A stretch of 62,956 bases of DNA, filler included, from Babesia bigemina (Eukaryota), in the NCBI RefSeq assembly GCF_000981445.1. It is 8 parts of 8 records of this genome, joined end to end, with 100 filler letters (N's around TTAATTAATTAA, not from the genome) between each part and the next. Parts side by side here need not be neighbours in the genome. Positions count along the whole stretch, not along the records: positions 7,703 to 16,005 come from NW_012236964.1; 7 more parts are not named here. The stretch is one strand, 5' to 3'. This document shows, in pieces, positions 4,301 through 32,411 of this stretch (position 1 is its first letter; each line of letters starts with the position of its first letter). Position numbers and translations under genes: made by a program. The notes beneath the pieces are model-generated. The model ran no database searches, was not told the origin of the DNA, and saw nothing but the letters and a program-made list of their open reading frames with translations.

Positions 4301-6989
4301 TGTCCGCGAACGCGGTGAGGAGCGATTTGATGGAGGTGACGTAGTTGCGGCGGGCGGCGGTGGTGAGGAGCCGAGTAGAGTTATCTACTTGGATGTTGAC
4401 AAATTGTTCGAGATGTTTCATTATTACATCGCGAAATGCTTCAGATTCTGTCTGGAAATTTTTAGTAGCCTCTATGGTTTGTGCCACATCGGTTCGTATG
4501 AGACCTTCCATTTTCATCTTAATTCCAATTAGTTCATTGTCATTGGTACCGTTAATAGAGTTGTTTATAAAATCGTTTAAATAGTGTTGCGCTTGTTCAC
4601 CGCTTTCCCTAACGGCACCGCACAGTTGTTCGACATGGTGTATAATTAAGTGAAGCTGTGATTCCGCATAGTTATTGATTGAGTCAATAGATGTTAGAGC
4701 CTCCCTGACTTTGGCTCCAATTTTTCCAATCTCCAATGGAAGGGCGCCCTCACTATTATCAGGATTGCCCGTCAGAGGTGACACAATACTTTGGGAGACA
4801 TGCTTAGTGTAATGTGGAAAAGCATTATCGTTAACGTTTACTTTTGCAGCTCCATTAGCGAGTACAACGCTTCCCTTGTAAGGCAACTTGCCACCAAGCG
4901 TGATAGCCACCCCGTCAATCGCCTGGTCGATATTTGTCACGTAGTCCACTGTGAAGGCTTCACCAACAGACGCTTCAATATTATGAAACAGCTTTTTTGC
5001 CACACTAACCGCAGAGTCCAGGTTATCTCCCATCTTGGACATCTTCCTGGAACTTTCATGACCGATTAACAATTTGAGTTCTTCTGCCACCTGCTGGGCT
5101 GTTGCTTGGAGAGCTGCCAGCGCCGTTTTAACGGCGCGTTCAAGGGAATAATCGTAATCAAACTTGGACGGTGTGGGACTCCTAACTTCTGTTTCGATAG
5201 CTTTTACAATACTTTTAACAAGTTCGCTAGTATCACCGGACGTGAGGCCCTCCTCATCTATCTTACTACTGAGCGTCTGCTCAAATTTTTTGATACAATC
5301 ATATACAGCGACTAAATTCCCATCCGTTTCCTTTTTGCCGGACTGAATTGTTGCATTTTCAAGCGATATTCCGAGCGCAGGTCTAATTGCTTCCGCAATT
5401 TTACCGGTATGTGAATTGCTGAATTCTTCTTTACCCTTCGTTATATAACCCTCCTTAAAGTAACCGATGCTACCGCTCTTCTCTTTTATCCACTTCCCAA
5501 CCCAGCCCTTTACTCCTGAATTATTGTCCAAAATAAGTTTTATCCACCCCTGCACTGTGCTTTCGAACGTCTTTTTGAAACGCTTGGAGTAGTCGTCGAC
5601 TATGAGCTTTTTTATACCTTCGAGACCGAAGCTTCCTAGGGTGCTACCCCTAATTTTGTAGAGCTCTGACTTCACATGTTTGAAAACGTCTGCAAATTTC
5701 CGATTTTTATCTCCTGTACCAGCTGTGCCTGTTCTAATGACTTCGTTGAGTTTACCGATTGCTGTTTTAACCTCTCCGAGTTTTTTATTTATTTGCAGTT
5801 TGACCTCTCCCAAATCTTTCTTTAAATCTTCATTCATTGATGCAACCTCCTCCAGTGCCTTTTTCACCTGAGCAACCGCATCTTTTCTGGCGGATTCCCC
5901 TGCCTTATGAAGTTCTGACGCCTTATCTCTTAACTCCTTTGCGGCGTTTTCGACGTCTTTTCTCCTTTGCCCTTTTTCATCCCATTTTACGTCATCCAAT
6001 ATATTTTGCAGTCTGTATTTAGCCGCCTGAATTGTGGCATTTGCATCCTTGATCCACTGCAATATATCTTTTATACGGTTTTGCAGAATTATGCCAATAC
6101 CTTCAATTTTTACCCTAATAATTGTAACCTTCGTGTTCAATTGGTACACTAGGTCCGTAACCTGCTCAGTAAACTCTTTCGTGATCTCAGCTTTTAGGAA
6201 TTCGTGAACACTCTTAATTTCCTCCTCCATACTCTTCAAGTCCCCTCGCTCCTTCTCCGCCAGCTTATACAGCCTCTTACCCTCATACGAAACATTGTTT
6301 AATGCAACATTTACACGATCTCTACAATTAGAATTAAGGTCTAAAATGTGTTTATTATTGTCATTGAGTTTGTTGCAGAAAGCCTGACCGGCGTCAAAGA
6401 ACTGCTTGGCAAGCATCTCAGCCCTGTCCACGGTCTTGACAATTTCACCTGCATCAGAATTATTTTCATCCAATTCACTCACCTGATTATTAAGATGTTT
6501 TACATCCTCTTGTAGAATTTTTATCGGATTCATGACTCTGTTATTAGAGTCTCTGACACCATCATTATACCCCCGCACCCCTGCGACCACACTTCCAATC
6601 GCAACACTAAAACCTTTTTTACCGGCGTGTTTATTGGTCTTCAAAGCTTCAATAGCTTCATTAATTTGTGTTTTATGCTGCCCTAAATGGTTTTGGATGT
6701 TACTGAGAACACCACTCAAAAATCCCATCACCCCGTCACACAGCCTATCCAGGTCGGAGTACACTATCCCAGTGCCGTCGTAGCCTTTGGACTCAGAGTT
6801 GAAGCCGAGGAATTTTTCGAGGCCGTCACATAAATTATCTAAGAGATTTTTACAATCATCAGACTTATTTTTTTCAGTAAAAATGCTAAGCTTATTTTCA
6901 AGTTCTTTAAGTTGTTTCTCACGCTCTTCAATGTCCTCCAAAGCTTTTTTAGTAGCATCGTCACTAAGAGAATGGTCAGTATCAGCAAG
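1357..6989 (-). pseudogene. ves1: VESA1-like variant erythrocyte surface antigen, gene 1; three apparent frameshifts near the 3' end (possibly sequencing errors) and no in-frame start ATG
   Basis: ORF 1926..6941 contains LCDGLEKFLGFN...IVYSDLDRLCDGVMGFLSGVL and SPLQSFLEDGLPGFLPH. Homology continues in other frames (1843..2088, 1425..1787) and then as IPKFIWNIRSKFFWLNVALWLLSLLYLLHIMVIRLDLLHIKSHLHSPSSHRIAAQSLLAAARVGSLGKISYLQP, stop at 1357-1359. The frame is open upstream to 6989. The ves subfamily is uncertain. Confidence 0.7.
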
Positions 6990-7176: not shown

Positions 7177-7602
7177 AGCGATGTAGAGTGGGTAAAGGGG
7201 CGATGTAGAGTGGATAAAGGGGCGATGTGGAGTGGGTTAGGGAGCGATGTAGAGTGGGTAAAGGGGCGATGTAGAGTGGGTTAAGGGGCGATGTGGAGTG
7301 GGTTAAGGAGCGATGTAGAGTGGATAAAAGGGCGATGTAGAGTGGATAAAGGAGCGATGTGGAGTGGATAAAGGGGCGATGTGGAGTGGGTTAGGGAGCG
7401 ATGTAGGGTGGGTTAAGGAGCGATGTAGAGTGGATAAAGGGGCGATGTAGGGTGGCTTAAGGGGCGATGTAGGGTGGGTAAAGGGGCGATGAAGGGTGGG
7501 TTAAGGGGCGGTGTAGAGTGGGTAAAGGGGCGATGTAGAGGCGATGTAGAGTGGATAAAGGGGCGATGTGGAGTGGGTTAAGGGGCGATGGAGAGTGGGT
7601 TA
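7177..7602 (-). repeat. 22-bp array A upstream of gene 1
   Basis: GGGCGATGTAGAGTGG units with period 22. Confidence 0.97.
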
Positions 7603-7702
7603 NNNNNNNNNNNNNNNNNNNNNNNNNNNNNNNNNNNNNNNNNNNNTTAATTAATTAANNNNNNNNNNNNNNNNNNNNNNNNNNNNNNNNNNNNNNNNNN
7701 NN
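7603..7702. other. artificial contig spacer N44-TTAATTAATTAA-N44 (also at 16006-16105, 24559-24658, 33250-33349, 42113-42212, 51090-51189, 60125-60224)
   Basis: Identical 100-nt structure seven times; the palindromic linker has stop codons in all six frames. Confidence 0.98.
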
Positions 7703-8670
7703 CATCGCCCCTTAACCCACTCTACATCGCCCCTTAACCCACTCCACATCGCTCCCTTATCCACTCCTCATCGCCCCTTAATCCACTCTACATCGCCCCT
7801 TTACCCACTCTACATCGCTCCCTAATCCACTCTACATCGCCCCTTATGCACTCTACATCGCTCCCTAACATACTCTACATCGCCCCTTTATCCACTCCAC
7901 ATCGCCCCTTTATCCACTCCACATCGCTCCCTAACCCACTCCACATCGCTCCCTAACCCACTCCACATCGCCCCTTTACCCACTCCACATCGCCCCTTAA
8001 CCCACTCTACATCGCTCCTTCATCCACTCCACATCGCTCCCTAACCCACTCCACATCGCCCCTTTACCCACTCCACATAGCTTTTAATCCACTCTACATC
8101 GCTCCTCTATCCACTCTACATCGCCCCTTTACCCACTCTACATCGCCCCTTAACCCACTCTACATCGCTCCTTTATCTACTCCACATCGCCCCTTTATCC
8201 ACTCTACATCGCCCCTTAACCTCCTCTAATCGCTCCCTAATCCACTCTACATCGCCCCTTTATCCACTCCACATCGCTCCCTTACCCACTCTGCATCGCT
8301 CCTTTATCCACTCTACATCGCCCCTTATCCACTCTACATCGCCCCTTTACCCACTCCACATCGCCCCTTTATCCACTCTACATCGCCCCTTTATCCACTC
8401 TACATCGCTCCTTTACCCACTCTACATCGCTCCCTAACCACTCTACATCGCTCCCTAACCCACTCCACATCGCCCCTTAACCCACTCTACATCGCCCCTT
8501 TACCCACCCTACATCGCTCCCTAACCCACTCTACATCGCCCCTTTATCCACTCCACATCGCCCCTCTATCCACTCTACATCGCTCCCTTACACACTCTAC
8601 ATCGCTCCTTAACCCACTCTACATCGCTCCTTAACCCACTCTACATCGCTCCTTACCCACTCTACATCCC
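7703..8670 (+). repeat. 22-bp array A upstream of gene 2
   Basis: CCACTCTACATCGC core with period 22. Confidence 0.97.
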
Positions 8671-8760
8671 CCGAATTACCTCGCCATAATACCGCTATGA
8701 CCTCTTTAGACCACAATAATAACTTGTGCTATGTCATCCTTCACCTCCCTTCTGACTGTG
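8671..8760 (+). other. conserved array-to-gene linker (GAATTACCTCGCCATAATACCGCTATGACCTC...AATAACTTG)
   Basis: Also starts at 16822, 25092 (variant), 34719 and 53366, and occurs twice on the minus strand within 6990-7176. Confidence 0.85.
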
Positions 8761-11700
8761 TCCATCGACTGGTTGATCCAGGTTAGGTATGCGAATGGTG
8801 GCAATGGTGATGGTCTTACCAAGTTGTCTCAAGCTTTGAAAAAGTTGATTGAGGAGGCTATAGGTAACGCTACTAAGTCCCTCCAATCCGAAAAAAAGAA
8901 GCTTTCTTGCCCCTTCAAATACTCTGATACTGAGACTTATTGTCAGTACTACGAGAAGCAGATTAAGCACTGTGAGGAAGAGCTTAATAAACTTCAATCT
9001 CAACAACCTAAGAAACCTAATAATGAATACGAAAAAAATCTCTTAACTTCCACAAAACAACGTTGCGATGATGCTAAAAAAGCCTGTATAAAGGCTCACC
9101 AAAAACATCCTCCATCTGCTGCCTTGAAGTCTGTTGACTCCAAGATTGTCCAGCTTGGTGAATTGGCTGGGCAGCTTGGCGCTTTTGTTGGTGAAAGTGA
9201 TGTTGTTAAGAAAGCCGTTGAGAATGCTATTATCGCTGTAATTAACAGTAATGAAGAGCTTAAAAAGCTTTACTCTCCTTATGTTACTAAGCTTTCTGAG
9301 TCTGTCAACTCTGGTGGCAAGGCTGATGACACCGGTGAAATTGGTCAACTTCAAGTTGAAGTGTCTCGTAAAATTACTGAAATTACTAACCAAATTAAGC
9401 AACTTAAACAGCAAAATAAGCTTAATAATAACTCTCTTCCTTCCCCCTCTCCCTCTGCTGAGCTAGCCAAATTGCAGTCCAAGTTGGACGCTTTGAAGAA
9501 AGTGGAGGAGCTTTGTGAAAATTATGAGAAACTTAAAACTATGCCAAATGAGCCTAAAAACCTTTTAGAGAATCTTTGTGACGGCCTTCAGACTTTCCTC
9601 GGCTTCAACAAAGACTCCAAAGGCTACGACGGCACTGGGATAGTGTACTCTGACTTGGATAGGCTGTGTGACGGGGTGATGGGATTTTTGAGTGGTGTTC
9701 TCAGTGCGGTGAAAGATGATGAAGCAGTTAAAACGTACGATAATATGATGAGTAATAAGCTTGAAAAGGTACTAGAAGAGGTAAATAAAAAAATTGGCAC
9801 CGGGCGTGATGGGCTTGCGGCGTCTGTCGGCGCATTGAAGGGGTGGTTGGGGAAATATCTCCTTGAATTAGGTAAGCGAACTAGTACAGTCACAGGGCAT
9901 TTAGGTACACTTTGTGATGAGATCGAGAGGACGCATATCAAATCGGTGTCAATGAAGAAGGATCGTAAACTGGAAGAACAGTTGCAAGATTGGAAGAACA
10001 TCATCCAAATAATTGAACAGCACATAAATAACATAAATACAGAACACGTTAATAAATTGGATAACACATTAAAAAACAACGTAATGCGTGAAATTGAACC
10101 AATAATCAACGTCGTAAAACATCTAAAAGATGTGAGTGCCGACGACGTGCTCAGATGTCAAGCCGTGAAAGTGGACAATGAATTGCTGAAACAAAAAAAT
10201 ATATTAGAAGCTGCGATTCATATGAACAGTGACGATGTGCAGAAAACGTTAAGAAATGGAATTGATGAAGTTGTGAATCATATAAATACATTGAACGATA
10301 AGAGGAAACAGCAGATTCAATATCTGGACGGCGTTATCGCAACAGCAGATCAGCAAGCCCAAATACTTCTTGACGAATATCGAAACAAATATACAAATGG
10401 GATTGATGGGATGTTTGCAGATCTTCACGGTAGTATAAAAGATATTGAAGCAAATAAGGCGGGTGTAGAAAACGATGATAATAGTAGATGCCCACTTGAA
10501 AAGCAAATTGAGGTAGTAAAAAAAGCAGTTGAGAGCATTGAAGAAGCATATAAAAGCCGGTTGAAAAAGGTAAAAACGGCGGTAGATAGTGCGGTAGGCA
10601 CGACTAGAGGAACAATCAGGGGGCTCGGCTTGGGACTCATTAGGGATTTGAGAAGTTTGAAAAAAAAGGTGGAACAATATATTAAGGCGTATGTTAAAGG
10701 GTTGAAGGAAGCAGGTATGGAAAAATTGGAATGGAAGGTGAAAAATGATTTGAGAATCTTGAATTCGTGTATCTATACTAAGGTCACGGAGTATATTGAG
10801 GCGGATATGGGACTAGACATTAAGAATGCGCTGAAAGCGATGACCGATAAGATATCGGGTGGCGATACTGAGAATGGTCCTTTAGATTTGATTGAAGTCG
10901 GCGTTGCGAAGTACGTTGATAAATTCACTCAGAAGAATTTTGGAAATCAAATTTTGGAACAGTGGTTAAAACAGATATTGCAAAGTAAACAAGTCAAGAC
11001 TTCGCTGTGGTATTATGCCAGTGATGACTGGCATCAGCAGTCAGATCCTTACAAAAATAACGGAACCAGCGAGCAGGCTATTGCACAGGCAATCGTAAAA
11101 CAGCTTACTGAAGAAATGCAAGCTGCCACCAGATTGGTCACAGATAGGGAGGTAAGTGTCACTCAGAATTTGAATAATATTAGATCCTGTCTAACAACAT
11201 TTGCTCAGAAGATTCAAAATCGAATCATGCGAAACGACCTGGGAGAAATTGCCTCAAATATATTAGGTGCGGTTGACTCGAATGTTAAAAAGACCAGTAG
11301 TAAAGAAGCCTCTCATCTCATACCAGCAGTGGACATCATTTTCCAACAGCTTCATGGAATGGCAAAACAAGTTTCGGATGCTGTGGAAATGCTTCTGAGG
11401 GACTGCACATTTAATAACGTAGACGGTGCAATATTAGCGGTGGAAGGACTTCCGGAAGATCTGAAAAACGAGGTTGCCAACAAAGGTAATGTCAAACCTA
11501 ACACACTGGGTGATACAATTAAAAAGACGTTAGAAACAAAGGTGAAGGTGGCTATCGGTATGGGCGGCTGGGATTCAGATATAAAACTTGGTGAGAATAG
11601 GCTCATGGATGAATTCATCAGCGCGTACGAGAAACTCTTGAAAGCCTTCGAGACCAAAGATCTCGATAGCAAAATTGAAGTATTGTTTAAAGGGCTTCGG

Positions 11701-14700
11701 TTGGGAGAGGATGAAAAATTCAAAGACTTGATGACAACATATGCCGGCGAAAATGGTATTTCGAAGGTATGCAGCCAAATCGATGCAATGGAGCAGGCGG
11801 TGAGCACTGAGGGTTTCCAACTAGCCAAAAATGGCGCAGCGGATTTTAATCCCGATGATATGTCAGGTTACAACGATGTTGGCACTGGTGCCAAGCGGAC
11901 GTATCTAGCTGCCGTCGAAACCGTAAAGACCACCATCGACAACCTCGAAAACATTCCCGGTTTTGTAGAAGATAAGAGAAAAGCGGCCTGCAGTAAGATG
12001 GAGGAATTGAGACAGAAAATCGAAGGAATTCAAGGCAGAATATACGGTGTTAAATTGGCAGTCTCACATGCTAACGACGCATTGTCGGCAGCCATAAATG
12101 CTGTTAGTGAAGCATTGATTATAGCCTCGAAGAACGCCATGAATGCGATTGAATCGCTACGTGTCTCACTAATCGGAAAGGTCACGGAAGCGTTGGACGA
12201 CGTGACTGAACAAGTACAGAAGTTGTTTGCAGAGCAACATGTGGTGGAATTGGCAACTCTGCAAAAATTAGCGGAGGAACAAAAATCGAGAATTGTAACA
12301 ATAATAAAAAAGGACGAAACCACTGTAATTAAAGGTCTGATTAAGACGATGGTAGACCAACATGCAACGCTGGATAAAATGATCACGGATGTAGCCTCGT
12401 ACAGTCCTGAGAATTTCAATGCCGCTGTCTCAAAAACCAAAGATTATTTGAATAGAGTATTAGTCTACATTTGGAAGGACATACAAAAGGGACTCGCATC
12501 TCACGCTCCACAAAGAGAGCGGTATAGAACTTATGTTGAGCATATCAAACAAGCTATCAACGACATGCTTGACCGTATTTATACTTCAAAGCATTTCGAC
12601 GATGAGTTTGTCCAATTACGTGGTAAACTAGACGGCTTTCTTCAGAATTTGTCGCCTCGAGATTACGGCGCCATGGCATATGCTGTCATGGATGCCCTCA
12701 AGCATGGCCTCATCGGCTTGACTCATGAACTTGACAAGGCCTACGTCAACACCTACTCCGGCAAACAGTACGCGGACGCCGACAACGCCAAGTACGCCAA
12801 AGTATGCTTCACGGCGTTATCCATTCTGAAGAAGATTCTAAGTGAGTTGAGAAAGCGGTCAGGCAAGAAATCAGAACATGACGGTTTCAAGGATCAACAG
12901 ATACGCAAATACACTGCGCTAGGAACGCTGCTAGGTGACGAGGGTTTCGTCGTCTCCGATCCCGACGAGCAGAACGGAGAATTGCAAGATAAACGCACCA
13001 TGACTGGTGAACAAATTAAGGGTCTCATTATTGGCACCGCTGATGAACACGTCTATACAAGCCTGGATGACGTTCGAGATGGTGGTTCACTTAAAGCGCT
13101 TTACGAGTGCCTCGAAACGTATTTCCGTGTCACGCACATCAATCCACCTCAGAAGCCTAAAGCGCCGTGCAGCGTGTATGAGACACTTTGCTGGTTCAGC
13201 AGTTTCCCTTACACTCCCGTATATCTCGATTTGACGTCTGACGGATTTGGTGAGCTAATCGGCAAGACTGACAAGGCGGGTTCCAAGGACACTGGTGATG
13301 ACTTCATCACCTTCGAAGACTTCGGCAGTCAATCTAAGGATGCATATCCGGAAGCTATCACTGTCGGTCACTTATCTGACTGCCTCACAGAAGTATGCCA
13401 TTATTCGCACGATTTGCTTACCACTATCCAAGGCCACGGTCACGCGGGAGGCATCTACGCTTGCGACTTCAACGTTAACCCGCACGGTTTAGTATACCCG
13501 TCTGACATGAATTCGCTGCTCTGTCTGCTGTTCGAGTTACTGAAACGCCTGCACTACCAGCTCTACGTACTATACCAACAGTGCTCATATGAGTCCGATC
13601 TTGGAGGCTGGCGTGACTGCTGGTATGGCCAGGGAATATATGGATCGGCGTGGAAGTGCAATGCTCTCCAATGCCCCAACCAAGACTGCGACCAAAGCTG
13701 CAACCAAACAGCTAACCAAAAGTGTAGGCAAATACCTAAGTGCGGTGTAAAATCACCACTACAATCGTTCCTAGAGGACGGGTTGCAAGGGTACCTGCCT
13801 CACTCTCTGAAATCCGAAAGAGGTCAAATTAAGTGCTCACTTAGCGGCCACTCTGGCATCCCATGTGCGACACCGATGGGATTTGCTGACATCGAAACGG
13901 TGGCGTCACGTCGGCTGACCGGTGACAGTCTAACAAACGTGCTTGCCGAAATGTGCGGAGACGAATCATCTCCACTCAGCAAACTATGTGCGCATATGAA
14001 CTGTCTGCTGGCAAGTGCCCCCAAAGCATTGGGTGAGATGTTCGGATTTTACCTTAATTTCCTCGGTGGCTGGAACGATATCAATGATAACAAGGGCCAG
14101 GTTCATAAGAGAAATGCCTTCGAAACAGCCGTAAGAGCGGCCAATTTCGAAAATGAAGCAACTGATTTGGATATTACACCAATATTCCGTCACCGTGGCC
14201 ATGGCTCCGGCAAAAATGTGAAACATCTTACTGGTGACCTATACTCCCTTGTGCATTGCAACGGTAATCCATCGTCCGTCGCATCCCACCCCTGCGGACC
14301 GTACCTGCGACCCATCTGTCAAGATACCTGCAACACTTATACAGAGAAAGACGCCGACAAGTATCTTTCGTGGATAGTGTATCTGACAGAAACGTTCTAT
14401 GACCTACTTAAAAAGTTGTATGAGGAGTGCTCCGCGAACTGCGACTCGAAAGGTTCGAGGTGCCGCACTAGTAAATGCAAACCAAATTGCACAGCGAGTA
14501 GTCGTCCAGCAGGTGACGGATCCGCTCACACGGAAGATTGCAATTCCATTGTGCAATGTAAGAAGATGCGTCCGACATTGCTCAAATATGGATTCGTACA
14601 TGGAGACTGCACAACCCTGTCCACCACGCCGACCAAGCGAACGTGCAAAGACATGTGTATGGTACTGAAATCAGTAGTTATCGGTGAGTGCAAACTGGGC

Positions 14701-14943
14701 GATCTAGTTTACGTAACAATTCCAGAATTTTTATTCACCATCCGCGCACCATTCATCTGGCTCAACGTCGCACTCTGGCTCCTCTCCTTCCTCTACCTGC
14801 TCCACATCATGGTCATCCGCCTAGACCTCCTCCACATCAAATCGCATCTACATAGTCCCTCGAGTCATCGCATCGCTGCTCAATCACTACTCGCTGCTGC
14901 ACGTGTTAACAAGCTTAACAGAGTGTTTTACCTGCAACCATAA
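8731..14943 (+). CDS. ves1: VESA1-like variant erythrocyte surface antigen, gene 2 (2070 aa, tail type A)
   Basis: Intact ATG-started ORF with SIDWLIQV, the YSDLDRLCDGVMGFLSGVL motif, a Cys-rich distal domain, TM FIWLNVALWLLSFLYLLHIMVI and tail NKLNRVFYLQP. Confidence 0.85.
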   Translation: MSSFTSLLTVSIDWLIQVRYANGGNGDGLTKLSQALKKLIEEAIGNATKSLQSEKKKLSCPFKYSDTETYCQYYEKQIKHCEEELNKLQSQQPKKPNNEYEKNLLTSTKQRCDDAKKACIKAHQKHPPSAALKSVDSKIVQLGELAGQLGAFVGESDVVKKAVENAIIAVINSNEELKKLYSPYVTKLSESVNSGGKADDTGEIGQLQVEVSRKITEITNQIKQLKQQNKLNNNSLPSPSPSAELAKLQSKLDALKKVEELCENYEKLKTMPNEPKNLLENLCDGLQTFLGFNKDSKGYDGTGIVYSDLDRLCDGVMGFLSGVLSAVKDDEAVKTYDNMMSNKLEKVLEEVNKKIGTGRDGLAASVGALKGWLGKYLLELGKRTSTVTGHLGTLCDEIERTHIKSVSMKKDRKLEEQLQDWKNIIQIIEQHINNINTEHVNKLDNTLKNNVMREIEPIINVVKHLKDVSADDVLRCQAVKVDNELLKQKNILEAAIHMNSDDVQKTLRNGIDEVVNHINTLNDKRKQQIQYLDGVIATADQQAQILLDEYRNKYTNGIDGMFADLHGSIKDIEANKAGVENDDNSRCPLEKQIEVVKKAVESIEEAYKSRLKKVKTAVDSAVGTTRGTIRGLGLGLIRDLRSLKKKVEQYIKAYVKGLKEAGMEKLEWKVKNDLRILNSCIYTKVTEYIEADMGLDIKNALKAMTDKISGGDTENGPLDLIEVGVAKYVDKFTQKNFGNQILEQWLKQILQSKQVKTSLWYYASDDWHQQSDPYKNNGTSEQAIAQAIVKQLTEEMQAATRLVTDREVSVTQNLNNIRSCLTTFAQKIQNRIMRNDLGEIASNILGAVDSNVKKTSSKEASHLIPAVDIIFQQLHGMAKQVSDAVEMLLRDCTFNNVDGAILAVEGLPEDLKNEVANKGNVKPNTLGDTIKKTLETKVKVAIGMGGWDSDIKLGENRLMDEFISAYEKLLKAFETKDLDSKIEVLFKGLRLGEDEKFKDLMTTYAGENGISKVCSQIDAMEQAVSTEGFQLAKNGAADFNPDDMSGYNDVGTGAKRTYLAAVETVKTTIDNLENIPGFVEDKRKAACSKMEELRQKIEGIQGRIYGVKLAVSHANDALSAAINAVSEALIIASKNAMNAIESLRVSLIGKVTEALDDVTEQVQKLFAEQHVVELATLQKLAEEQKSRIVTIIKKDETTVIKGLIKTMVDQHATLDKMITDVASYSPENFNAAVSKTKDYLNRVLVYIWKDIQKGLASHAPQRERYRTYVEHIKQAINDMLDRIYTSKHFDDEFVQLRGKLDGFLQNLSPRDYGAMAYAVMDALKHGLIGLTHELDKAYVNTYSGKQYADADNAKYAKVCFTALSILKKILSELRKRSGKKSEHDGFKDQQIRKYTALGTLLGDEGFVVSDPDEQNGELQDKRTMTGEQIKGLIIGTADEHVYTSLDDVRDGGSLKALYECLETYFRVTHINPPQKPKAPCSVYETLCWFSSFPYTPVYLDLTSDGFGELIGKTDKAGSKDTGDDFITFEDFGSQSKDAYPEAITVGHLSDCLTEVCHYSHDLLTTIQGHGHAGGIYACDFNVNPHGLVYPSDMNSLLCLLFELLKRLHYQLYVLYQQCSYESDLGGWRDCWYGQGIYGSAWKCNALQCPNQDCDQSCNQTANQKCRQIPKCGVKSPLQSFLEDGLQGYLPHSLKSERGQIKCSLSGHSGIPCATPMGFADIETVASRRLTGDSLTNVLAEMCGDESSPLSKLCAHMNCLLASAPKALGEMFGFYLNFLGGWNDINDNKGQVHKRNAFETAVRAANFENEATDLDITPIFRHRGHGSGKNVKHLTGDLYSLVHCNGNPSSVASHPCGPYLRPICQDTCNTYTEKDADKYLSWIVYLTETFYDLLKKLYEECSANCDSKGSRCRTSKCKPNCTASSRPAGDGSAHTEDCNSIVQCKKMRPTLLKYGFVHGDCTTLSTTPTKRTCKDMCMVLKSVVIGECKLGDLVYVTIPEFLFTIRAPFIWLNVALWLLSFLYLLHIMVIRLDLLHIKSHLHSPSSHRIAAQSLLAAARVNKLNRVFYLQP

Positions 14944-15067: not shown

Positions 15068-15646
15068 AAAGTGGTGACCAAAGTGCTGACCAAAGTGTTG
15101 ACCAATGTGCTGACCAATGCCGTGACCAAAGTGGTGACCAATGTCATGACCAACGTGGTGACCAATGTGCTGACCAATGCCATGACCAAAGTGCTGACCA
15201 ATGTGCTGACCAATGTGCTGACCAATGCCATGACCAATGTGCTGACCAAGCACCTGACCAATGCGATGACCAATGTGCTGACCAATGCCATGACCAGAGT
15301 GATGACCAAGGTGCTGACCAACGTGCTGACCAATGCCATGACCAAAGTGCTGACCAATGTGCTGACCAGTGTGCTGACCAACGTGCTGACCAAGGTGCTG
15401 ACCTAAGTGCTGACCAACCACCTGACCAAGGTGGTGACCAACGTGTTGACCAACGTGTTGACCAACGTGTTGACCAATGTGCTGACCAGAGTGGTGACCT
15501 ACCACCTGACCAACGTGTTGACCAATGTGCTGACCAATGTGCTGACCAAGATGCTGACCAATGCCATGACCAACGTGTTGACCAATGTGCTGACCAATGT
15601 GCTGACCAATGCCGTGACCAATGCCATGACCAAGGTGGTGACCAAG
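15068..15646 (+). repeat. 12-bp array C
   Basis: TGACCAA core every 12 nt. Confidence 0.96.
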
Positions 15647-15653
15647 TTAAGAA

Positions 15654-15898
15654 TCACGGCAGCGATGACATGGTCACGGCAGCGATGACATGGTCACGGC
15701 AGCGATGACATGGTCACGGCAGCGATGACATGGTTACGGCAGCGATGACATGGACACGGCAGCGATGACATGGTCACGGCAGCGATGACATGGTTACGGC
15801 AGCGATGACATGGTCACGGCAGCGATGACATGGTTACGGCAGCGGTGACAAGTTAGTGGTCACGGCAGCGATGACATGGACACGGCAGCGATGTCATG
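15654..15898 (+). repeat. 20-bp array B
   Basis: TGGTCACGGCAGCGATGACA repeats. Confidence 0.96.
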
Positions 15899-15917
15899 GT
15901 GACCAGAGTACTGATTT

Positions 15918-16005
15918 TTAACCCACTCTACATCGCCCCTTAACCCACTCTACATCGCTCCCTTATCCACTCTACATCGCCCCTTAACCCACTCTACATC
16001 GCTCC
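15918..16005 (+). repeat. 22-bp array A downstream of gene 2, truncated by contig end
   Basis: About 4 units before the gap. Confidence 0.93.
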
Positions 16006-16105
16006 NNNNNNNNNNNNNNNNNNNNNNNNNNNNNNNNNNNNNNNNNNNNTTAATTAATTAANNNNNNNNNNNNNNNNNNNNNNNNNNNNNNNNNNNNNNN
16101 NNNNN

Positions 16106-16820
16106 TCTACATCGCTCCTTAATCCACTCTACATCGCTCCCTAACCCACTCCACATCGCCCCTTTATCCACTCTACATCGCTCCTTAATCCACTCTACAT
16201 CGCCTTATAATCCACTCTACACCGCCCCTTTACCCACTCTTCATCGCCCTCTTATCCACTCTACACCGCTCCCTAATCCACTCTACATCGCTCCCTAACC
16301 CACTCTACATCGCTCCTTTGTCCACTCCACATCGCTCCCTAACCCACTCTACACCGCCCCTTAACCCACTCTACATCGCCCCTTAACCCACTCTACATCG
16401 CCCCTTTATCTACTCTACATCGCCCCTTAACCCACTCCACATCGCCCCTTTACCCACCTTACATCGCCCCTTAACCCACTCTACATCGCTCCCTAACCCA
16501 CTCTACATCGCTCCTTTACCCACTCTACATCGCTCCCTAACCCACTCTACATCGCCTATTATCCACTCTACATGGCCCCTTTATCCACTCTACATCGCCC
16601 CTTTATCCACTCCACATCGCTCCCTAACCCACTCCACATCGCCCCTTAACCCACTCTACATCGCTCCCTAATCCACTCTACATCGCCCCTTTATCCACTC
16701 TACATCGCCCCTTACTCCACTCCACATCGCTCCCTTAACTCACTCTACATCGCTCCCTAACCCACTCTACATCGCTCCCTAACCCACTCTACATCGCTCC
16801 TTTACCCACTCTACATCCTT
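16106..16820 (+). repeat. 22-bp array A upstream of gene 3
   Basis: Period-22 units. Confidence 0.97.
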
Positions 16821-16879
16821 CGAATTACCTCGCCATAATACCGCTATGACCTCTTTAAACCATAGCAATAACTTGTGCC

Positions 16880-19800
16880 TTGTCACCCTTCACCTCCCTT
16901 CTGACTGAGTCCATCGACTGGTTGATCCAGGTTAGGTATGGGAATGGTGGTAACAATGGCCTTGGTGAGTTGTCTCAAGCTTTGAAGACGTTGATTGAGG
17001 AGGCTATAAGTAACGCTACTAACTCCCTCCAATCCGAAAAGTCTAAACTTGAATGCCCTGTTAAGTATAAGGGAGATGAGTCCACTTGCCAGGCTATGGA
17101 TAGGCAAATTAAGGAAGCCAAGGACGCTAAAAATTCTGTTCATCCTAAAACTCAAATTCCAATAACTGAACTTGAAAAACAAAAACAACGCTGCCAAAAT
17201 AACCACACTTATTACCGTGACGGTTCCAAGCAGAAAGCGTATGAGGACATTGAAGAGCGTCAGAAACAACTTGAAGATCTTAAAAGTAAGCTTACTAAAT
17301 TCACTGAAGAACTCAATAAAGACGGTAATAATAATATTTTAACGCATTTATGTGACGGCCTTCAGACTTTCCTAGGCTTCGACTCTGACACTAAAGGCTA
17401 CACTGGCCAGGGGATTGTGTACTCAGACCTGGATAGGCTGTGTGACGCGGTGATGGGATTTTTGAGTGGCGTGCTTAAGGATGTCAGCGAGAAACAGCCT
17501 TACAAAGTAGGCAAAGATATACTTGAAAACATTGTTACTGACTTTGAATCCAAATTATCCACCGGGCGTAAGGGTTTTGAGGTCATTGAGACGGTGGCGC
17601 AGAGGGTGCGGGAGTATAATGATACAGTAAGTGAAAGAAGCAGTGAGGTCAGAAAAAAGATAACAGATTTAGATGATGAAATGACAACAATACAAGATCA
17701 AATTAAGAAAACATATCCTACCAAAGAGGAAAAAGATGCTGAACCTCTTGCAGACAAAATTGAGAAATCTAAAATTGAAGTGACTGAGATGGTAGAAAAA
17801 TGTAAAAAGCTTGCCAAAACATTTAAAGCAGACTTATTTAATCTGAAAGATAAAATCAAAGATTTAGGCCATGAAGCAAACGAACAAATTAATAAAGCCA
17901 GAGACAATGTGGAGCGTGAAGGTCAGCGTCTTGGCAGAGTGCAGAAGAATGAGAAAGAACAGTACGAGGAGATGGAGACGAAAATTACAAGTGTTCTGTT
18001 AGTCGTAAAAGATAAGTTGAATCAGGAGATTAGGAGCCAGGTGAATGGACTTATCAGTCTACTAAATGAGAAGGTCAAAAACATTTTGAAGGAGTGTAGG
18101 CATATTTGTCGTACGCTTGAAAATTATCTTCTGGATCTGGATAAGTGGATGGAGACGGCCAAAACGTTCATTGATAATGTAATCGAAAAACAGGTGGGAG
18201 CAATAAAAAAAGAAGTTGATGAAGCCGCAAAAGATAGAAAGCCGAACCACAAGAAAAATCTGGACACATCAATCAGCGAACTGGAAGCTGGATTGAAGCA
18301 GAGAGTCACAGAGTTGGATACATGGAATAAGGCTGCAGGGAGCGCTGTTAGCGCGGCGAAGGAGAAGTGTAAGACAATTGGTGATATGGTGGAGACTAAA
18401 AGTGCAGGTAGTGACAAAATTCATGGGCTAGCGAAAACGATGCAGGAAAAGGCTGATAAGCTCAGGGAGGCGGCGAAGGAAGTTAAGAAGGAGATTGGTC
18501 AGTGGGTTAAAGCAGCGCTTACGCAGGTGAAAGAGATGGATGGAAAACTTAAGCATGATCTGGGTAAATTAAAAGAACAAATTAATCAAAAGATTGGGGA
18601 TTATGTTAGGGGTTATATTAAAGAAGTTAGAAGTAAAGTTAAGAGTATCGAGGGGGATACACGAAATCCGAAATCAGGTCTTTGGGGCGTTAAACAAAAA
18701 GTTAAAGATTATGCAGAAACTTATAAGAAATTTTACCAAAAGAATACAGGAATGGTGTATCAGTGGATTGAACAGATTTTGGAAAGCGGGGCGGTTGATT
18801 CGTATCTAACACATTATGGTACTACGGAGCGACAAAATGCAAAAAACAAGGTGAAGGAAAAGATTGCGGAGGTTGCTGAGACAGAGGTTGATACACAGCC
18901 CAAAGCAGAGGGAAACGTGAAAGCTACTCTGAATAACATTAAAGATTTTCTTACTAATTTCGCTGAGCGAGTCAAGATTAAACTAGCAGGTGGTGAGTTC
19001 ACTAAATTTGTTGATTCCGTGAGGAAGGATACTGGCATTGTTATGTCCGAAAAATCGCATCTCGAAGCTGCGGTCAAAATTATACTGCGGCTAGTCGCCA
19101 CTGCTGCTTCGAAGCTTGCCAATGAAATTAATGAATTGGCGTTGAAGCAGGATAAGGATAGCCTTGGTCAATACTTGGATGACGCTCTTGATGTTGCGGG
19201 GACGCTTGAGCAGAATCTAGGTGATGCATTTCAGTCGACAAACGATCATGTCGGAAATGTCACCTCACCTGCTTTAAACGATAATATTCCGAAGCTGATC
19301 ATTGCGATATTGAATGGAGAGTTACCTGCCGCTAAAGGTGACAAGGTAGGAGAACAGGTTACGCTGAAAAATGTTAAGGGGTTTTCACAATATAACGCCT
19401 ACATCAATCAACAAAATTTAAACCTCACCGATCCTAGAGCCGCTCTAACCGGTGTGGACGATGACACCGAGGGCACCCTCCCCGCGGCGATCGGTGATAT
19501 TGAGAGGCAGGTGACGAGTAAGCTTACTGCTGGTGACCTCGCATCAGAAATAGATAAATCGACCACTTTCCAATCCCCCTTCGACCAAATCACCACGAAA
19601 CTAAAAGAAATCGCCGGGCTGGTTGACAGCGCTACAAAAACAACCACGAAAGTGCAAGGCGGTCAAGATTCAAACGACGGCATCCAACAATACTTAGGTG
19701 CGCTTGATGAAATGCGTACCGGTGGAGGTACTGTCAACCTCACCGCAAAGGGCTTGGAAAGTCACGCCCCCGTCAAAGGCCTCGAGACGATCAAAAATGA

Positions 19801-22800
19801 TATTGGCCTGCTGCAAACCAAGAACATTGAGAATGTGAAACACAACCTCAATGAGCTCTGCGCAGCGGTGAGATGGGCAGCCAACGAGGTCAACTGGTTT
19901 ATGAGGGAGATGAAAAAAGGGCAGATTGATGAGAAACTGGCTGGGATCAGGAAACAAATCGACGACCTACGTGTCAAGGAGATACAGGGTACTATCACCC
20001 TATGCACTGACTTTCTTCAAAAAGCCACTGAATCAGGACAAGTTACAATCAAGGCACTTGAAAAATATGTCGATGAACAAGTTGCCGACGCCATTAAAAC
20101 ACTCACCACCCAGGCCAAAAAGCACTACGTCTCCACCCTCAAGACTGAGCTGCAAAACTTCACCGCCAGAGTTCAGGGCCACTTGACGGGACTGACGACG
20201 CTGATCGACAAGGATCTGACCATTGGTTACAAGGGGCTGATGAAGACTGTGCAGGGGGTTAAGTTTATTGTTGAACACAAAAAGGAAGCTGAGTTCTACA
20301 CGTCGGGAGGTACTAAGCTGTTTGATGCAATTAAGAACGCTGTACCTCCGCCACCCGAGCAAGAGAGGCCAACCAAGGAACATTTCAAGGCCTTAGTAGA
20401 TGCCTTCGAGCATTACTTCAACAATATCCACGGCTACGTCAAGGAAGAGATTTCGAGGCTGGACAAGCAGTACAAACAAACGCTTAATTACCAGCTAACA
20501 CACACTGAATCGAAATACCTTGAGAAGCTCTACACCTCCAGGCTCAACGCTGCACATACCGCGATCAACAACCTACTTGATCACATTAATACAAGCCACC
20601 GCTATAACCACGAACTCCCCGCCTTGCTTGACAGTCTCTCCTCCGCAACTGCCACCCTCGCTCCCGAATCCTTTGCCAGGACCACGACCCCCCTGCTTGA
20701 CGGTATCGGCAAGGGTGTTGAAGGATTTGTTAGTGAACTTGAAAAGGCCTACAATAATAGATATGATGGAGGCTCCGATGGCATAATATTAGTCGACGCA
20801 AGAACTACGAAAGTTACGGATGATGGCAAAAAGTGCGCTAAAGTGTGCCTCAACGTACTATCCATCTTGTATACGGAGTTAAACACATTGGTGAAGCATT
20901 GCCAGTCGTCATCCAGAAGTGAACAAATTAATAAATTGACCAATGTAGGCAAGTTCTTCCTTGACCAAGGCTACGATGTTTCCGACGATGGCGAGCAGAA
21001 TGGTGAATTGCAAGACGACAAGAGGATGACAGTGTTCTTCATCTACAAACGTCTTTTCGGATATGATGACAATCACATCTACAAAAAAGATAGATTCAAC
21101 CAAGAAATCGGCCCGCTTAAAACTTTACACGACTGCCTCCAAACATATTACCAAGTCGGCCACGTTGCCACTTCATCCTCCAAAAAAACACCATGTAGCA
21201 TATTCGAGATGCTATGTTGGCTATCTGGCCTGCCGTGCAATACGGTTTACACGGAGTTGTGGCGTGATGCTGTGAGTGACCTGTTTGTCGATCCAAAGAA
21301 GCAGACGACGGAAGATGATATAAGCATGTCGTTTGTCAGCGACGAACCCCTGCCGGCGTATCCCACCTCAATCGAATGTGATGCTGCACAGCGAGCAGTG
21401 AAGCGCCTATGCTCAAGGTCGTACGACGTTCTGATCAAAATAGTAGGTTACGGCAACGAACACACGACATACGCCGTCGACTACTGCGACAACAGTCTGC
21501 GTCTATCTTACCCATCCGATCCGTCACAGTGCCTTGAACTATTGCTGGACATCCTACGCAGATTGTTACCGGTGTTCAGATTCTTGCATAGCCAGTGCAA
21601 GCTGGAAACTAAACACTACGGTTGGTCGAATTGCCTGTACGGCAAGGATATCTTGACCGGTAAATCGCATTGTGATAAGCATCCAGATGACAAGCAAACC
21701 GACTGCCTGCCCAGATCACCGCTTCAATCGTACCTTAGTGATACGTTACCCGGCCACTTACCTCACAACCTAACTACCATGGGATGCAAATCCGTATGCA
21801 GCAACTGCCCCAAGGGCCTGCCTGGACAGCCGTGTCTGACACCACTTGGCTTCAGAGGTTTCTCTGGAAGTACGAAGCAAGGCAAAGAGCTATGCAAAGT
21901 GCTGACCAAATTCTTAGACAATTCGAATATTAACACGCTGTTCGGTCTGTTGCCTAAGCCGCCATCTACGTTGCCCGAACACTTCCAATTTGCGTTGTCG
22001 TTGGCCAATATGCTAAAGAATGACGGCTCTCGTACAAATGACGTCAAAACAGCCTTCGACAAATCAATCAACGAGGTGTCCATCGACCTGCATAAAAACT
22101 CAAGCAAATTAACAAGTGCGCTACGTAATGTGTATCTGAATGACCACAGCCATGAAGGCAATGCGCATCACAAAGCTAACGAAGCCGATCTGTACACGCT
22201 CTCAAAAACAACGTCGTGTATTCAACCAAACGATATGAATATTCACTGCGGTCCCTATCTCTCGTCTACATGTTTCGATACATACAACTATCTCGCAGAA
22301 AAACATTCCGATCTGTATCTCTCGTGGGCTGTGTATCTACCGTGGACTTTCTATAACTACCTGAAATCATTACTTGACGCCTTCCAACAAATTGATTGTG
22401 TTAACTTTGGATGTACCAGATGTCATTGTAAACCAGGTGGCCACGGTAAAGAATACAACTGTAAGTGCAACGCCTTAGTAACTTGTCGCGGCGTTATTAG
22501 TACATTCTACAGTTACGGATTCACATTTGGTAGCGCTAGCCAATTGATGCACACTGACAGCAGACGCTACTGCCGAAACTTCTACAACCAAATCTGTAAC
22601 GTACTGAAATCGCAACACTTCACCAAATTATTTGAGGAATGTGACAACTTCATTTGGACCATCAGAGAACCGTTCACCTACCTAGTGCTGGCTCTCTGGT
22701 CACTCTCCCTCTTCTACCTCATCTGCGTGATGATTGGCAGACTGGATGTGCTCCACATCAGGTCACACCTGAGGATACCGTCATCGCACAAGATAACAGC

Positions 22801-22864
22801 GCAGTCACTGTTGGCTGCAGCGCAAGTCGGAAGGCTTGCCAAGATATCGTATCTACAACCGTGA
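16880..22864 (+). CDS. ves1: VESA1-like antigen, gene 3 (about 1994 aa, tail type B); true start uncertain because the ORF opens at TTG
   Basis: ESIDWLIQVR, YSDLDRLCDAVMGFLSGVL, SPLQSYLSDTLPGHLPH, TM FTYLVLALWSLSLFYLICVMIG, tail GRLAKISYLQP. Confidence 0.8.
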   Translation: MSPFTSLLTESIDWLIQVRYGNGGNNGLGELSQALKTLIEEAISNATNSLQSEKSKLECPVKYKGDESTCQAMDRQIKEAKDAKNSVHPKTQIPITELEKQKQRCQNNHTYYRDGSKQKAYEDIEERQKQLEDLKSKLTKFTEELNKDGNNNILTHLCDGLQTFLGFDSDTKGYTGQGIVYSDLDRLCDAVMGFLSGVLKDVSEKQPYKVGKDILENIVTDFESKLSTGRKGFEVIETVAQRVREYNDTVSERSSEVRKKITDLDDEMTTIQDQIKKTYPTKEEKDAEPLADKIEKSKIEVTEMVEKCKKLAKTFKADLFNLKDKIKDLGHEANEQINKARDNVEREGQRLGRVQKNEKEQYEEMETKITSVLLVVKDKLNQEIRSQVNGLISLLNEKVKNILKECRHICRTLENYLLDLDKWMETAKTFIDNVIEKQVGAIKKEVDEAAKDRKPNHKKNLDTSISELEAGLKQRVTELDTWNKAAGSAVSAAKEKCKTIGDMVETKSAGSDKIHGLAKTMQEKADKLREAAKEVKKEIGQWVKAALTQVKEMDGKLKHDLGKLKEQINQKIGDYVRGYIKEVRSKVKSIEGDTRNPKSGLWGVKQKVKDYAETYKKFYQKNTGMVYQWIEQILESGAVDSYLTHYGTTERQNAKNKVKEKIAEVAETEVDTQPKAEGNVKATLNNIKDFLTNFAERVKIKLAGGEFTKFVDSVRKDTGIVMSEKSHLEAAVKIILRLVATAASKLANEINELALKQDKDSLGQYLDDALDVAGTLEQNLGDAFQSTNDHVGNVTSPALNDNIPKLIIAILNGELPAAKGDKVGEQVTLKNVKGFSQYNAYINQQNLNLTDPRAALTGVDDDTEGTLPAAIGDIERQVTSKLTAGDLASEIDKSTTFQSPFDQITTKLKEIAGLVDSATKTTTKVQGGQDSNDGIQQYLGALDEMRTGGGTVNLTAKGLESHAPVKGLETIKNDIGLLQTKNIENVKHNLNELCAAVRWAANEVNWFMREMKKGQIDEKLAGIRKQIDDLRVKEIQGTITLCTDFLQKATESGQVTIKALEKYVDEQVADAIKTLTTQAKKHYVSTLKTELQNFTARVQGHLTGLTTLIDKDLTIGYKGLMKTVQGVKFIVEHKKEAEFYTSGGTKLFDAIKNAVPPPPEQERPTKEHFKALVDAFEHYFNNIHGYVKEEISRLDKQYKQTLNYQLTHTESKYLEKLYTSRLNAAHTAINNLLDHINTSHRYNHELPALLDSLSSATATLAPESFARTTTPLLDGIGKGVEGFVSELEKAYNNRYDGGSDGIILVDARTTKVTDDGKKCAKVCLNVLSILYTELNTLVKHCQSSSRSEQINKLTNVGKFFLDQGYDVSDDGEQNGELQDDKRMTVFFIYKRLFGYDDNHIYKKDRFNQEIGPLKTLHDCLQTYYQVGHVATSSSKKTPCSIFEMLCWLSGLPCNTVYTELWRDAVSDLFVDPKKQTTEDDISMSFVSDEPLPAYPTSIECDAAQRAVKRLCSRSYDVLIKIVGYGNEHTTYAVDYCDNSLRLSYPSDPSQCLELLLDILRRLLPVFRFLHSQCKLETKHYGWSNCLYGKDILTGKSHCDKHPDDKQTDCLPRSPLQSYLSDTLPGHLPHNLTTMGCKSVCSNCPKGLPGQPCLTPLGFRGFSGSTKQGKELCKVLTKFLDNSNINTLFGLLPKPPSTLPEHFQFALSLANMLKNDGSRTNDVKTAFDKSINEVSIDLHKNSSKLTSALRNVYLNDHSHEGNAHHKANEADLYTLSKTTSCIQPNDMNIHCGPYLSSTCFDTYNYLAEKHSDLYLSWAVYLPWTFYNYLKSLLDAFQQIDCVNFGCTRCHCKPGGHGKEYNCKCNALVTCRGVISTFYSYGFTFGSASQLMHTDSRRYCRNFYNQICNVLKSQHFTKLFEECDNFIWTIREPFTYLVLALWSLSLFYLICVMIGRLDVLHIRSHLRIPSSHKITAQSLLAAAQVGRLAKISYLQP

Positions 22865-23027
22865 TCATCGTCACATTTGTAATTCACAGCAACTCACTTA
22901 GCGAATCACCTACTCACCTAACCGACAAACGTAGTCTAATGTCTCGAATTACTCTAGCGGCAAACTGTGAACTAAATAGCGTTGAAATTAGGTGATGACT
23001 GAACGACCATGCAACGTGCTAACCTAG

Positions 23028-23475
23028 CACTCAGGCAAAGTGCTAACCTAGCACCCAGGCAAAGTGCTGAGCTAGCACCCAGGCAACGTGGTAAGGTAGC
23101 ATCCAGGCAAAGTGGTAAGCTAGCAACCAGGCAAAGTGCTAAGCTAGCAACCAGGCAAAGTGCTAAGCTAGCACACAGGCTAAGTGGTAAGCTAGCAACC
23201 AGGCAGAGTGGTAAGCTAGCAACCAGGCAACGTGCTAAGCTAGCACACAGGCGAAGTGATAAGCTAGCACACAGGCTAAGTGGTAAGCTAGCAACCAGGC
23301 AGAGTGGTAAGCTAGCAACCAGGCAACGTGCTAAGCTAGCACACAGGCGAAGTGATAAGCTAGCACCCAGGCTAAGTGATAACCTAGCACACAGGCAACG
23401 TGGTAAGCTAGGAACCAGGCAAAGTGGTAAGCTAGCACCCGGGCTAAGTGCTAACCTAGCACCCAGGCTAAGTGT
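23028..23475 (+). repeat. 24-bp tandem array D (CAGGCAAAGTGCTAAGCTAGCACC)
   Basis: Period 24; found only after tail-B genes. Confidence 0.95.
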
Positions 23476-31846: not shown

Positions 31847-31860
31847 ATAGGGAGGAGAAG

Positions 31861-32328: not shown

Positions 32329-32411
32329 TCGCAATCACGTAACTGGCAACTGACATCTAATGTTCTAGACAGAGTAATGATCGCGTTGATGACCAGTCAC
32401 ATGAGCAGTGA

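What the first reader, a model, noticed from the sequence alone, without database searches (positions are those of the whole stretch)
15600..15960. Array B is built from inverted cores of both neighbouring arrays
Seen: the B unit TGGTCACGGCA-GCGATG-ACA has a first 11 nt that is the exact reverse complement of the C-array variant TGCCGTGACCA (15610-15620 vs 15671-15681). Its GCGATG is the reverse complement of the near-invariant CATCGC core of array A. So C>|<B and B>|<A form two facing motif fields. Inference: B could pair alternatively with C or A in ssDNA or RNA, or the fields are convergent arrays of protein sites (TGACCA, CATCGC), for example for ApiAP2-type factors, forming a boundary element.
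Basis: partly seen in the sequence, partly recalled or inferred. Interest (0 to 1): 0.7.

Follow-up and report, generated by a model that had tools for sequence, protein, structure and literature searches.

The report
Fold-back repeat between startless Babesia antigens
The 20-base repeat does mirror its neighbours, likely because it arose by fold-back copying of one of them, and it sits in a repeat block that separates start-less copies of a cattle parasite's surface-antigen gene, which likely serve as a silent donor archive for antigenic variation.

Summary
The matches are real. 15610-15620 is the exact reverse complement of 15671-15681, and GCGATG mirrors A's CATCGC. The B-C link beats shuffles (P 0.002-0.03); the B-A link is marginal (P 0.01-0.2). 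B is best read as an amplified fold-back of one common C unit (10/11 inverted plus 7/8 direct; 0 of 400 shuffles), nested in C's tail. A pairing switch is not supported: the exact C partner is 2 of 124 units, B's C-matching end is its least conserved part (25 of 56), hybrids reach 23-47% of duplex energy, and one module lacks B. The CATCGC core is the most conserved block of A and lies in B's conserved block, so a shared protein site stays possible. The context matters more. The window is a Babesia bigemina-like ves1b cluster. C-B-A recurs five times behind ves 3' ends, and all seven ves ORFs that follow an A array lack the family's normal start. Contigs of other public runs show the same joins. 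The module likely bounds silent donor cassettes, as 70-bp repeats do for trypanosome VSGs; that function is untested.

The parts
8731..14943 (+). Upstream ves1b-like ORF (2070 aa), itself lacking the family's first 14 residues
   Evidence: listed as the window's own P0031
14941..15070 (+). Conserved 130-nt 3' flank between the ves stop codon and array C
   Evidence: 85-93% identical at four other ves 3' ends in the window, partial at two more
15071..15645 (+). Array C, 12-bp unit with invariant TGACCA core, about 48 copies
15610..15620 (+). Rare C variant exactly complementary to B columns 1-11 (second copy at 15118)
   Evidence: 2 of 124 C units
15646..15653 (+). C|B junction spacer; centre of a 6-bp inverted repeat in modules at 945 and 59370, decayed here; recurs inside B at about 15830
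   Evidence: AGTTG insertions inside B in contigs of runs X1-X4
15654..15896 (+). Array B, 20-bp unit = inverted C half + direct C half, about 12 copies
15897..15917 (+). C-type tail units between B and A (B is nested in the end of C)
   Evidence: same C-to-A join with and without B
15918..16817 (+). Array A, 22-bp unit with CATCGC core, strongly C-rich on +; interrupted by an assembly gap
   Evidence: G4Hunter mean 0.96 on the G-rich strand
16006..16105 (.). Assembly gap spacer (44 N, 12 nt with stops in all frames, 44 N); true length of A and adjacency across it unknown
   Evidence: eight identical spacers in the window; reading as a scaffolding spacer is from my own knowledge
16818..16900 (+). 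Conserved leader between A and the ves reading frame; its ATG is out of frame here
   Evidence: 86-95% identical behind five other A arrays; frame test; bridged by contigs of X2 and X3
16880..22864 (+). Downstream ves1b-like ORF; homology to intact relatives begins at their residue 15 (16901)

Best explanation
Array B is a 20-bp minisatellite that likely arose by fold-back copying of a C unit, and it is an optional part of a C-B-A repeat module that separates start-less ves1b-like genes and likely acts at the DNA level as the boundary of silent donor cassettes for antigenic variation. Shown: B = inverted C half + direct C half of one common C variant; B sits inside C's tail; the module follows ves 3' ends; A precedes ORFs that lack the normal start; one module has no B. 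Inferred: a template switch at the end of a C unit made a short hairpin junction, which slippage or unequal exchange amplified and which spread with the whole module. The complementarity is thus a trace of origin, not a selected pairing. Inferred with less support: the long A arrays and the conserved 3' flank give shared homology that copies and shuffles cassettes, and the conserved CATCGC cores in A and (inverted) in B bind a protein that keeps them silent, while a few complete genes draw segments from this pool.
For: Fold-back fit 10/11 + 7/8 to one C variant (12 of 124 units), 0 of 400 shuffles as good (model chosen after seeing the data). 6-bp inverted repeats with 6-7-nt loops centred on the C|B junction in 2 of 5 modules, and the junction spacer recurring inside B in 2 of 5 modules and in contigs of 4 of 4 runs laid. 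The C-to-A join is alike with and without B. 7 of 7 ves ORFs behind an A array lack the canonical start; homology begins at residue 15 (3 copies) or deeper (4 copies), and residues 1-14 find no match in the window. The leader ATG is in frame and open in 1 of 6 copies. A-leader and leader-ves joins are bridged by contigs of X2 and X3. 53 of 77 B. bigemina-labelled homologs lack the canonical start, 21 begin with leader-like peptides, against 2 and 0 of 12 B. ovata-labelled ones. The three complete genes closest to the start-less pool share 15-24% of residues with it as exact 15-mers, from several copies; the other 21 complete genes share 1-10%. CATCGC is the least variable of 22 six-column windows in A.
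Against: No expression, binding, chromatin or switching data were available. Every long A array holds or ends at an assembly gap, so a hidden first exon or promoter inside A, and the head-to-tail order across gaps, cannot be excluded. A short intron in the leader cannot be excluded without RNA. Homolog N-termini are gene predictions, and 46 of the 53 non-canonical ones lie on contigs under 100 kb, where contig ends may cut genes. Start-less copies form no clade in a quick tree (19 changes vs 24.7 shuffled). Shared 15-mers also fit recent common descent. In B. bovis, segmental conversion uses 2-35 bp or no homology and no specific sequence (PMC7485966, passages), so flanking repeats may not be needed. 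The junction hairpin is decayed in 3 of 5 modules, including this one. B's match to A is not explained by C ancestry alone (7-mer or longer in 3.2% of simulated fold-backs).
Confidence: 0.55

Rival explanations
1. Neutral satellite turnover: C, B, A and D are by-products of recombination in a decaying ves1b cluster; the start-less copies are dead pseudogenes and the module does nothing.
For: B is absent from one module and array lengths vary widely. Start-less copies are not one clade. One ORF (1926-6941) is also broken near its 3' end. Minisatellites often show uneven column variation (own knowledge).
Against: Six of the seven ORFs stay open for 1,737-2,070 codons to the conserved C-terminus despite lacking a start. 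Order, leader and 3' flank are stereotyped and recur in other runs. Cores are more conserved than flanks in all three arrays.
Confidence: 0.25
2. A, B and C are one motif family kept alike by a shared DNA-binding protein (for example an ApiAP2); B is an inverted A/C intermediate that forms a facing field of CATCGC sites.
For: Reverse-complemented B aligns to A variants at 14 of 16 (P=0.012, 250 shuffles) and to a C dimer at 15 of 18. 14 of 19 mapped B columns equal a common A letter. The GCGATG block is conserved in B. Both arrays share the same minor core variant (6 of 529, 6 of 56). 260 of 529 A units hold the Plasmodium G-box pattern (motif from PMC2965767, no null run).
Against: Consensus-only B-A alignment P=0.11; eight pair tests were run; C-A similarity is nil (P 0.58 or more). 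TGGTCA is kept in only 25 of 56 B units. No GTGCA/SPE2-like sites. B is dispensable in one module.
Confidence: 0.25
3. B is a structural switch that pairs alternately with C or A in single-stranded DNA or a read-through RNA.
For: Folding gain above permuted B in 18 of 19 runs; duplex P=0.00-0.05 for both partners; z=-2.74 against dinucleotide shuffles.
Against: These gains follow from an inverted origin. Hybrids are 23-47% of perfect-duplex energy; RNA B:B equals B:C on the + strand. MFE frequency 0, centroid -109 vs MFE -160 kcal/mol. Exact partner 2 of 124; no compensation; B missing in one module; no Rfam match at E up to 1.
Confidence: 0.07
4. The copies are functional genes whose first exon or promoter lies inside the unassembled part of A or is joined by a short leader intron; the module is then a promoter or terminator spacer.
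For: All long A arrays hold gaps. The leader is conserved; one copy (53390) has an open in-frame leader ATG. One non-canonical homolog (P0007) has 4 peptides, 1 used for quantitation, in the proteomics supplement of PMC4066756.
Against: Truncation points differ among copies; one copy joins A directly to an internal codon with no leader; the leader ATG is out of frame or blocked in 5 of 6; complete relatives encode the start contiguously as predicted proteins.
Confidence: 0.15

Closest known systems
Trypanosoma brucei silent VSG cassettes with upstream 70-bp repeats (PMC1904282, passages)
   Same: Repeats lie upstream of antigen genes and a conserved block downstream; incomplete genes are plausible donors for segmental conversion.
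   Different: Here three or four unrelated-length GC-rich minisatellites in fixed order; genes lack their 5' end; no expression site or conversion boundary is shown.
Babesia bigemina ves1b family (PMC4066756, section 22 and passages; supplement rows)
   Same: Two named homologs of the window ORF (P0010, P0023) are labelled BbigVes1b; shared conserved C-terminus; ves1 genes are described as transposing and recombining.
   Different: The passages seen do not mention flanking minisatellites or start-less copies ('truncat' 0 hits; 'repeat' 3 hits, none on this). Supplement file 1 and figures could not be seen.
Babesia bovis LAT: divergent ves1 pair around a quasi-palindromic bidirectional promoter (PMC7485966, PMC4066756, passages)
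   Same: Inverted symmetry in ves intergenic DNA; silent genes act as donors for segmental gene conversion.
   Different: This module lies between a 3' end and a 5' end, is built of tandem arrays, and its symmetry is unit-scale.
Plasmodium falciparum SPE2 arrays bound by PfSIP2 upstream of upsB var genes (PMC2829057, passages)
   Same: Sense-oriented tandem motif arrays upstream of antigen genes, a model for silencing by an ApiAP2.
   Different: No SPE2 half-site in the units; arrays abut the ORF; binding untested.
Telomere-like repeats beside P. knowlesi SICAvar/pir genes (PMC4413850, passage)
   Same: G-rich repeats beside variant antigen genes, proposed to promote recombination; A holds CCCTAA 102 times.
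   Different: The full Babesia telomere unit (TTTAGGG, PMC10463595) occurs 3 times in all A arrays; A is not a telomeric tract.

Membership tests
BbigVes1b genes (flanking ORFs) | Homology to labelled ves1b proteins | tested here: met
   P0010 (E 9e-72) and P0023 labelled BbigVes1b
BbigVes1b genes (flanking ORFs) | Conserved VESA C-terminal domain | tested here: met
   6 of 7 ORFs end in the shared C-terminus; the seventh has it in a shifted frame
BbigVes1b genes (flanking ORFs) | Canonical N-terminus of complete genes | tested here: not met
   0 of 7; so these are ves1b-derived copies, not shown to be complete genes
VSG-type repeat-bounded donor cassette | Repeat array upstream and conserved block downstream of each copy | tested here: met
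VSG-type repeat-bounded donor cassette | Copies are silent | not testable with these tools
   no RNA run listed
VSG-type repeat-bounded donor cassette | Sequence is copied into an expressed locus | tested here: inconclusive
   patchy exact sharing with 3 of 24 complete genes; descent not excluded
VSG-type repeat-bounded donor cassette | Repeats shared with the expression site and used as conversion boundary | not testable with these tools
   no genome held
SPE2/PfSIP2 arrays | Bipartite motif with GTGCA half-site | tested here: not met
   GTGCA in 1 of 529 A, 0 of 56 B, 0 of 124 C units
SPE2/PfSIP2 arrays | ApiAP2 binding and heterochromatin | not testable with these tools
   needs EMSA or ChIP
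Alternative-pairing RNA/ssDNA switch | Complementarity above shuffled controls | tested here: met
Alternative-pairing RNA/ssDNA switch | Paired positions conserved or compensated | tested here: not met
   C-facing B columns least conserved (mean 0.88 vs 0.98), exact partner 2 of 124
Alternative-pairing RNA/ssDNA switch | Two defined, exclusive structures | tested here: not met
   B pairs with C and A at once in predicted folds; ensemble diffuse
Alternative-pairing RNA/ssDNA switch | Region is transcribed or single-stranded | not testable with these tools
B. bovis LAT bidirectional promoter | Lies between divergent ves genes | tested here: not met
   C-B-A follows a ves 3' end in 5 of 5 modules
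Interstitial telomeric repeat | Tandem CCCTAAA units | tested here: not met
   3 occurrences in all A arrays

The most novel reading that the evidence does not exclude
B. bigemina keeps a VSG-like archive of decapitated ves1b cassettes, each bracketed by a fixed minisatellite module whose CATCGC cores (direct in A, inverted in B) recruit a silencing or pairing factor, and which feed segments into very few complete expression-site genes. This would be a repeat-defined cassette system for antigenic variation in an apicomplexan, unlike the paired-gene model of B. bovis.
Probability: 0.3. Interest if true: 0.75.

Novelty: new variant of a known kind. Interest (0 to 1): 0.5.

Why it matters
The B-C mirror alone is a minor record of how minisatellites are born by fold-back. 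The setting could matter more. How B. bigemina varies its surface antigen is modelled on B. bovis, yet only 35% of its ves1 genes are paired that way (PMC4066756). A stereotyped repeat module beside start-less ves1b copies gives a concrete, testable architecture: many donors, few complete genes, defined cis-motifs. It also explains why assemblies break at these loci and why automatic gene models there start at arbitrary points. The very abundant A unit might also serve as a diagnostic target. I found no description in nine library searches (bear on this), but subscription papers and theses are not covered.

Tried and rejected
Whole-genome mapping: no genome is held. Pfam: no family passes its cut-off for 7 ORFs; weak coiled-coil hits only. 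RNA evidence: no RNA holder listed. Rfam: 0 matches. B pattern in metagenome contigs: 0. Earlier findings: none. Motif strings in papers: 41 papers held a term; the 30 listed matched only the 11-nt C motif and none concerns Babesia by title; 11 not seen. X4 shows A but no cover of the leader; not used. Summed contig depths are not copy numbers; not used. Direct C-A, D-C, D-A and D-B similarity: not significant. 'B minor variants drift toward A': 29 of 34 letters, but only 6 of 8 distinct variants against about 4.3 expected, so dropped (counted by hand). Tree of 82 of 96 rows (14 lacked the anchor motif; quick method): start-less copies are not one clade. The leader has no convincing match in 34 complete proteins. 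The folding run ended at the time limit with 19 of 20 cases. Reading A as telomeric repeat or SPE2 was rejected.

Full report
Observation. The two matches are as described: 15610-15620 is the exact reverse complement of 15671-15681, and GCGATG in B mirrors CATCGC in A. Tandem Repeats Finder gives C (12 bp, 15071-15645), B (20 bp, 15654-15900) and A (22 bp, 15918-16817, with an assembly gap at 16006-16105), and shows the same order five times in the window: 1231-1 on the minus strand, 15071, 23487, 49597 and 59173. A sixth module at 40392 joins C to A with no B.

Is it more than chance? I parsed 124 C, 56 B and 529 A units. The exact C partner occurs twice, only in this module. With 20,000 shuffles of the B unit, an 11-nt match to any C variant has P=0.002 in either orientation; against common C k-mers the exact match is 7 nt (P=0.11), and allowing mismatches P=0.027 (600 shuffles). 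The 7-nt match to A has P=0.04-0.20; both together 0.0006-0.008. Gapped whole-unit alignment gives 15 of 18 to a C dimer (P=0.004 inverted, 0.028 either way) and 14 of 16 to A variants (P=0.012; consensus only 0.11); C and A do not resemble each other. So B-C kinship is solid and B-A kinship is marginal.

Origin of B. One common C variant (12 of 124 units) explains B twice over: columns 1-11 are its reverse complement (10 of 11) and columns 12-19 its direct copy (7 of 8). None of 400 shuffles scored as high; the model was chosen after seeing the data. The C|B junction is the centre of a 6-bp inverted repeat with a 6-7-nt loop in 2 of 5 modules and is decayed in 3, including this one. The junction spacer recurs inside B in 2 of 5 modules and as AGTTG insertions in contigs of all four runs laid. 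C-type units follow B, and the C-to-A join is alike whether B is present or not. I infer a fold-back template switch at the end of a C unit, then amplification. C ancestry does not by itself give the A match: simulated fold-backs reach 7 nt in 3.2% of cases. Chance, a patch from A, or selection for a shared site all remain.

Pairing. Folding C+B+A as RNA or DNA, on either strand, gains more than with column-permuted B: in 18 of 19 completed runs none of 12 controls matched, in one run 1 of 12 did. Duplexes of three B units with local C or A beat 500 permutations at P 0.00-0.05, but reach only 23-47% of the perfect duplex, and RNA B:B equals B:C on the + strand. The 446-nt region has z=-2.74, MFE frequency 0 and a centroid far from the MFE. 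Selection on pairing should conserve the paired columns. Instead B columns 1-6, which face C's invariant TGACCA, are B's most variable (25 of 56 intact), while columns 7-17 are nearly fixed. No Rfam match. The pairing potential is what an inverted origin leaves behind.

Protein sites. Each array has a conserved core: CATCGC is the least variable of 22 windows in 397 in-register A units, TGACCA in C, and GCGATG lies within B's conserved block. This fits a site shared by A and B but not a TGACCA site in B. SPE2-like GTGCA is absent; the Plasmodium G-box pattern (PMC2965767, passages) is in 260 of 529 A units, with no null run. A's G-rich strand has G4Hunter means of 0.92-1.14 and 52 loose quadruplex patterns. 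None of this shows binding or structure.

Context. The long ORFs are relatives of proteins labelled Babesia bigemina (77 of 91 hits) and B. ovata (12), two hits being the window's own (only 7,985 candidates scored). Two hits are labelled BbigVes1b in the supplement of PMC4066756. Complete relatives (34 of 91) share a canonical start. All 7 window ORFs behind an A array lack it: three begin at residue 15 of complete relatives, four deeper, and residues 1-14 have no match in the window. Six copies have a conserved leader after A whose ATG is open and in frame once; one copy joins A straight to an internal codon. Contigs of X2 and X3 bridge A to leader and leader to ves, so the join is not peculiar to this assembly. 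Among B. bigemina-labelled hits 53 of 77 lack the canonical start and 21 begin with leader-like peptides; 46 of the 53 lie on contigs under 100 kb against 2 of 24 complete ones, which fits repeat-broken loci but also cut genes. Three complete genes share 15-24% of residues with the start-less pool as exact 15-mers from several copies, the other 21 share 1-10%.

Mechanism. Most likely the module works in double-stranded DNA as spacer and boundary of silent ves1b cassettes: A and the conserved 3' flank give shared homology for copying, and the cores may recruit a silencing factor. B is a dispensable insert. Shown: anatomy, B's kinship with C, missing starts, recurrence in other runs. Inferred: fold-back origin, silence, donor role, binding. 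Against: gaps inside every long A array, no RNA data, no clade of start-less copies, and B. bovis conversion needing only microhomology (PMC7485966).

Known systems. It works like trypanosome VSG cassettes, where 70-bp repeats often mark the upstream conversion boundary (PMC1904282), but two defining features could not be tested, so I do not file it as a member. It fails the SPE2, LAT-promoter and telomeric-repeat tests. Papers seen: PMC4066756 (section 22, passages, supplement rows; file 1 and figures unseen, and they may bear on the novelty claim); passages only of PMC10463595, PMC9531838, PMC1904282, PMC6630957, PMC2829057, PMC2965767, PMC4413850, PMC7485966, PMC5660447. None of these passages describes the module.

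Verdict. Observation confirmed; interpretation partly supported. Interest 0.5: low for the mirror itself, higher for the cassette architecture it led to.

Noticed in passing
window 23007-23474 and 30550-30948: A fourth array, D (24 bp), follows two ves 3' ends that have a different 3' flank. It has an internal palindrome with a 3-nt spacer, like B, and holds GCTAGC 17 times, the motif given for PF11_0442 upstream of var genes (PMC2965767). No significant likeness to A, B or C.
   Followed up: partly
window 30950-33250: Unique GC-rich stretch, a 75-bp array, a 155-aa cysteine-rich ORF with a hydrophobic C-terminus (31861-32328) and 282-bp repeats encoding hydrophobic tails. From memory these resemble ves1a-type C-termini; not searched.
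   Followed up: no
window 7178-8672: Two A arrays in opposite orientation meet at an assembly gap between divergent ves ORFs; either a real head-to-head locus or a scaffolding join.
   Followed up: no
window 1359-6941 (-): This ves copy carries the leader twice (7177-7095 and 7041-6986) and its 3' part is broken by frame shifts.
   Followed up: partly
window 53390-59047: Shares 706 residues as exact 15-mers with homolog P0058 and 316 with the complete gene P0043, a sign of recent exchange or duplication.
   Followed up: partly
window 60225-62956: A ves fragment starts mid-gene right after a gap, so scaffold adjacency across gaps is not reliable.
   Followed up: no
A arrays, about 12 kb of the window: Extreme GC skew (to -0.82) and quadruplex-prone G strand; A units dominate the contigs laid from all four runs.
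   Followed up: partly
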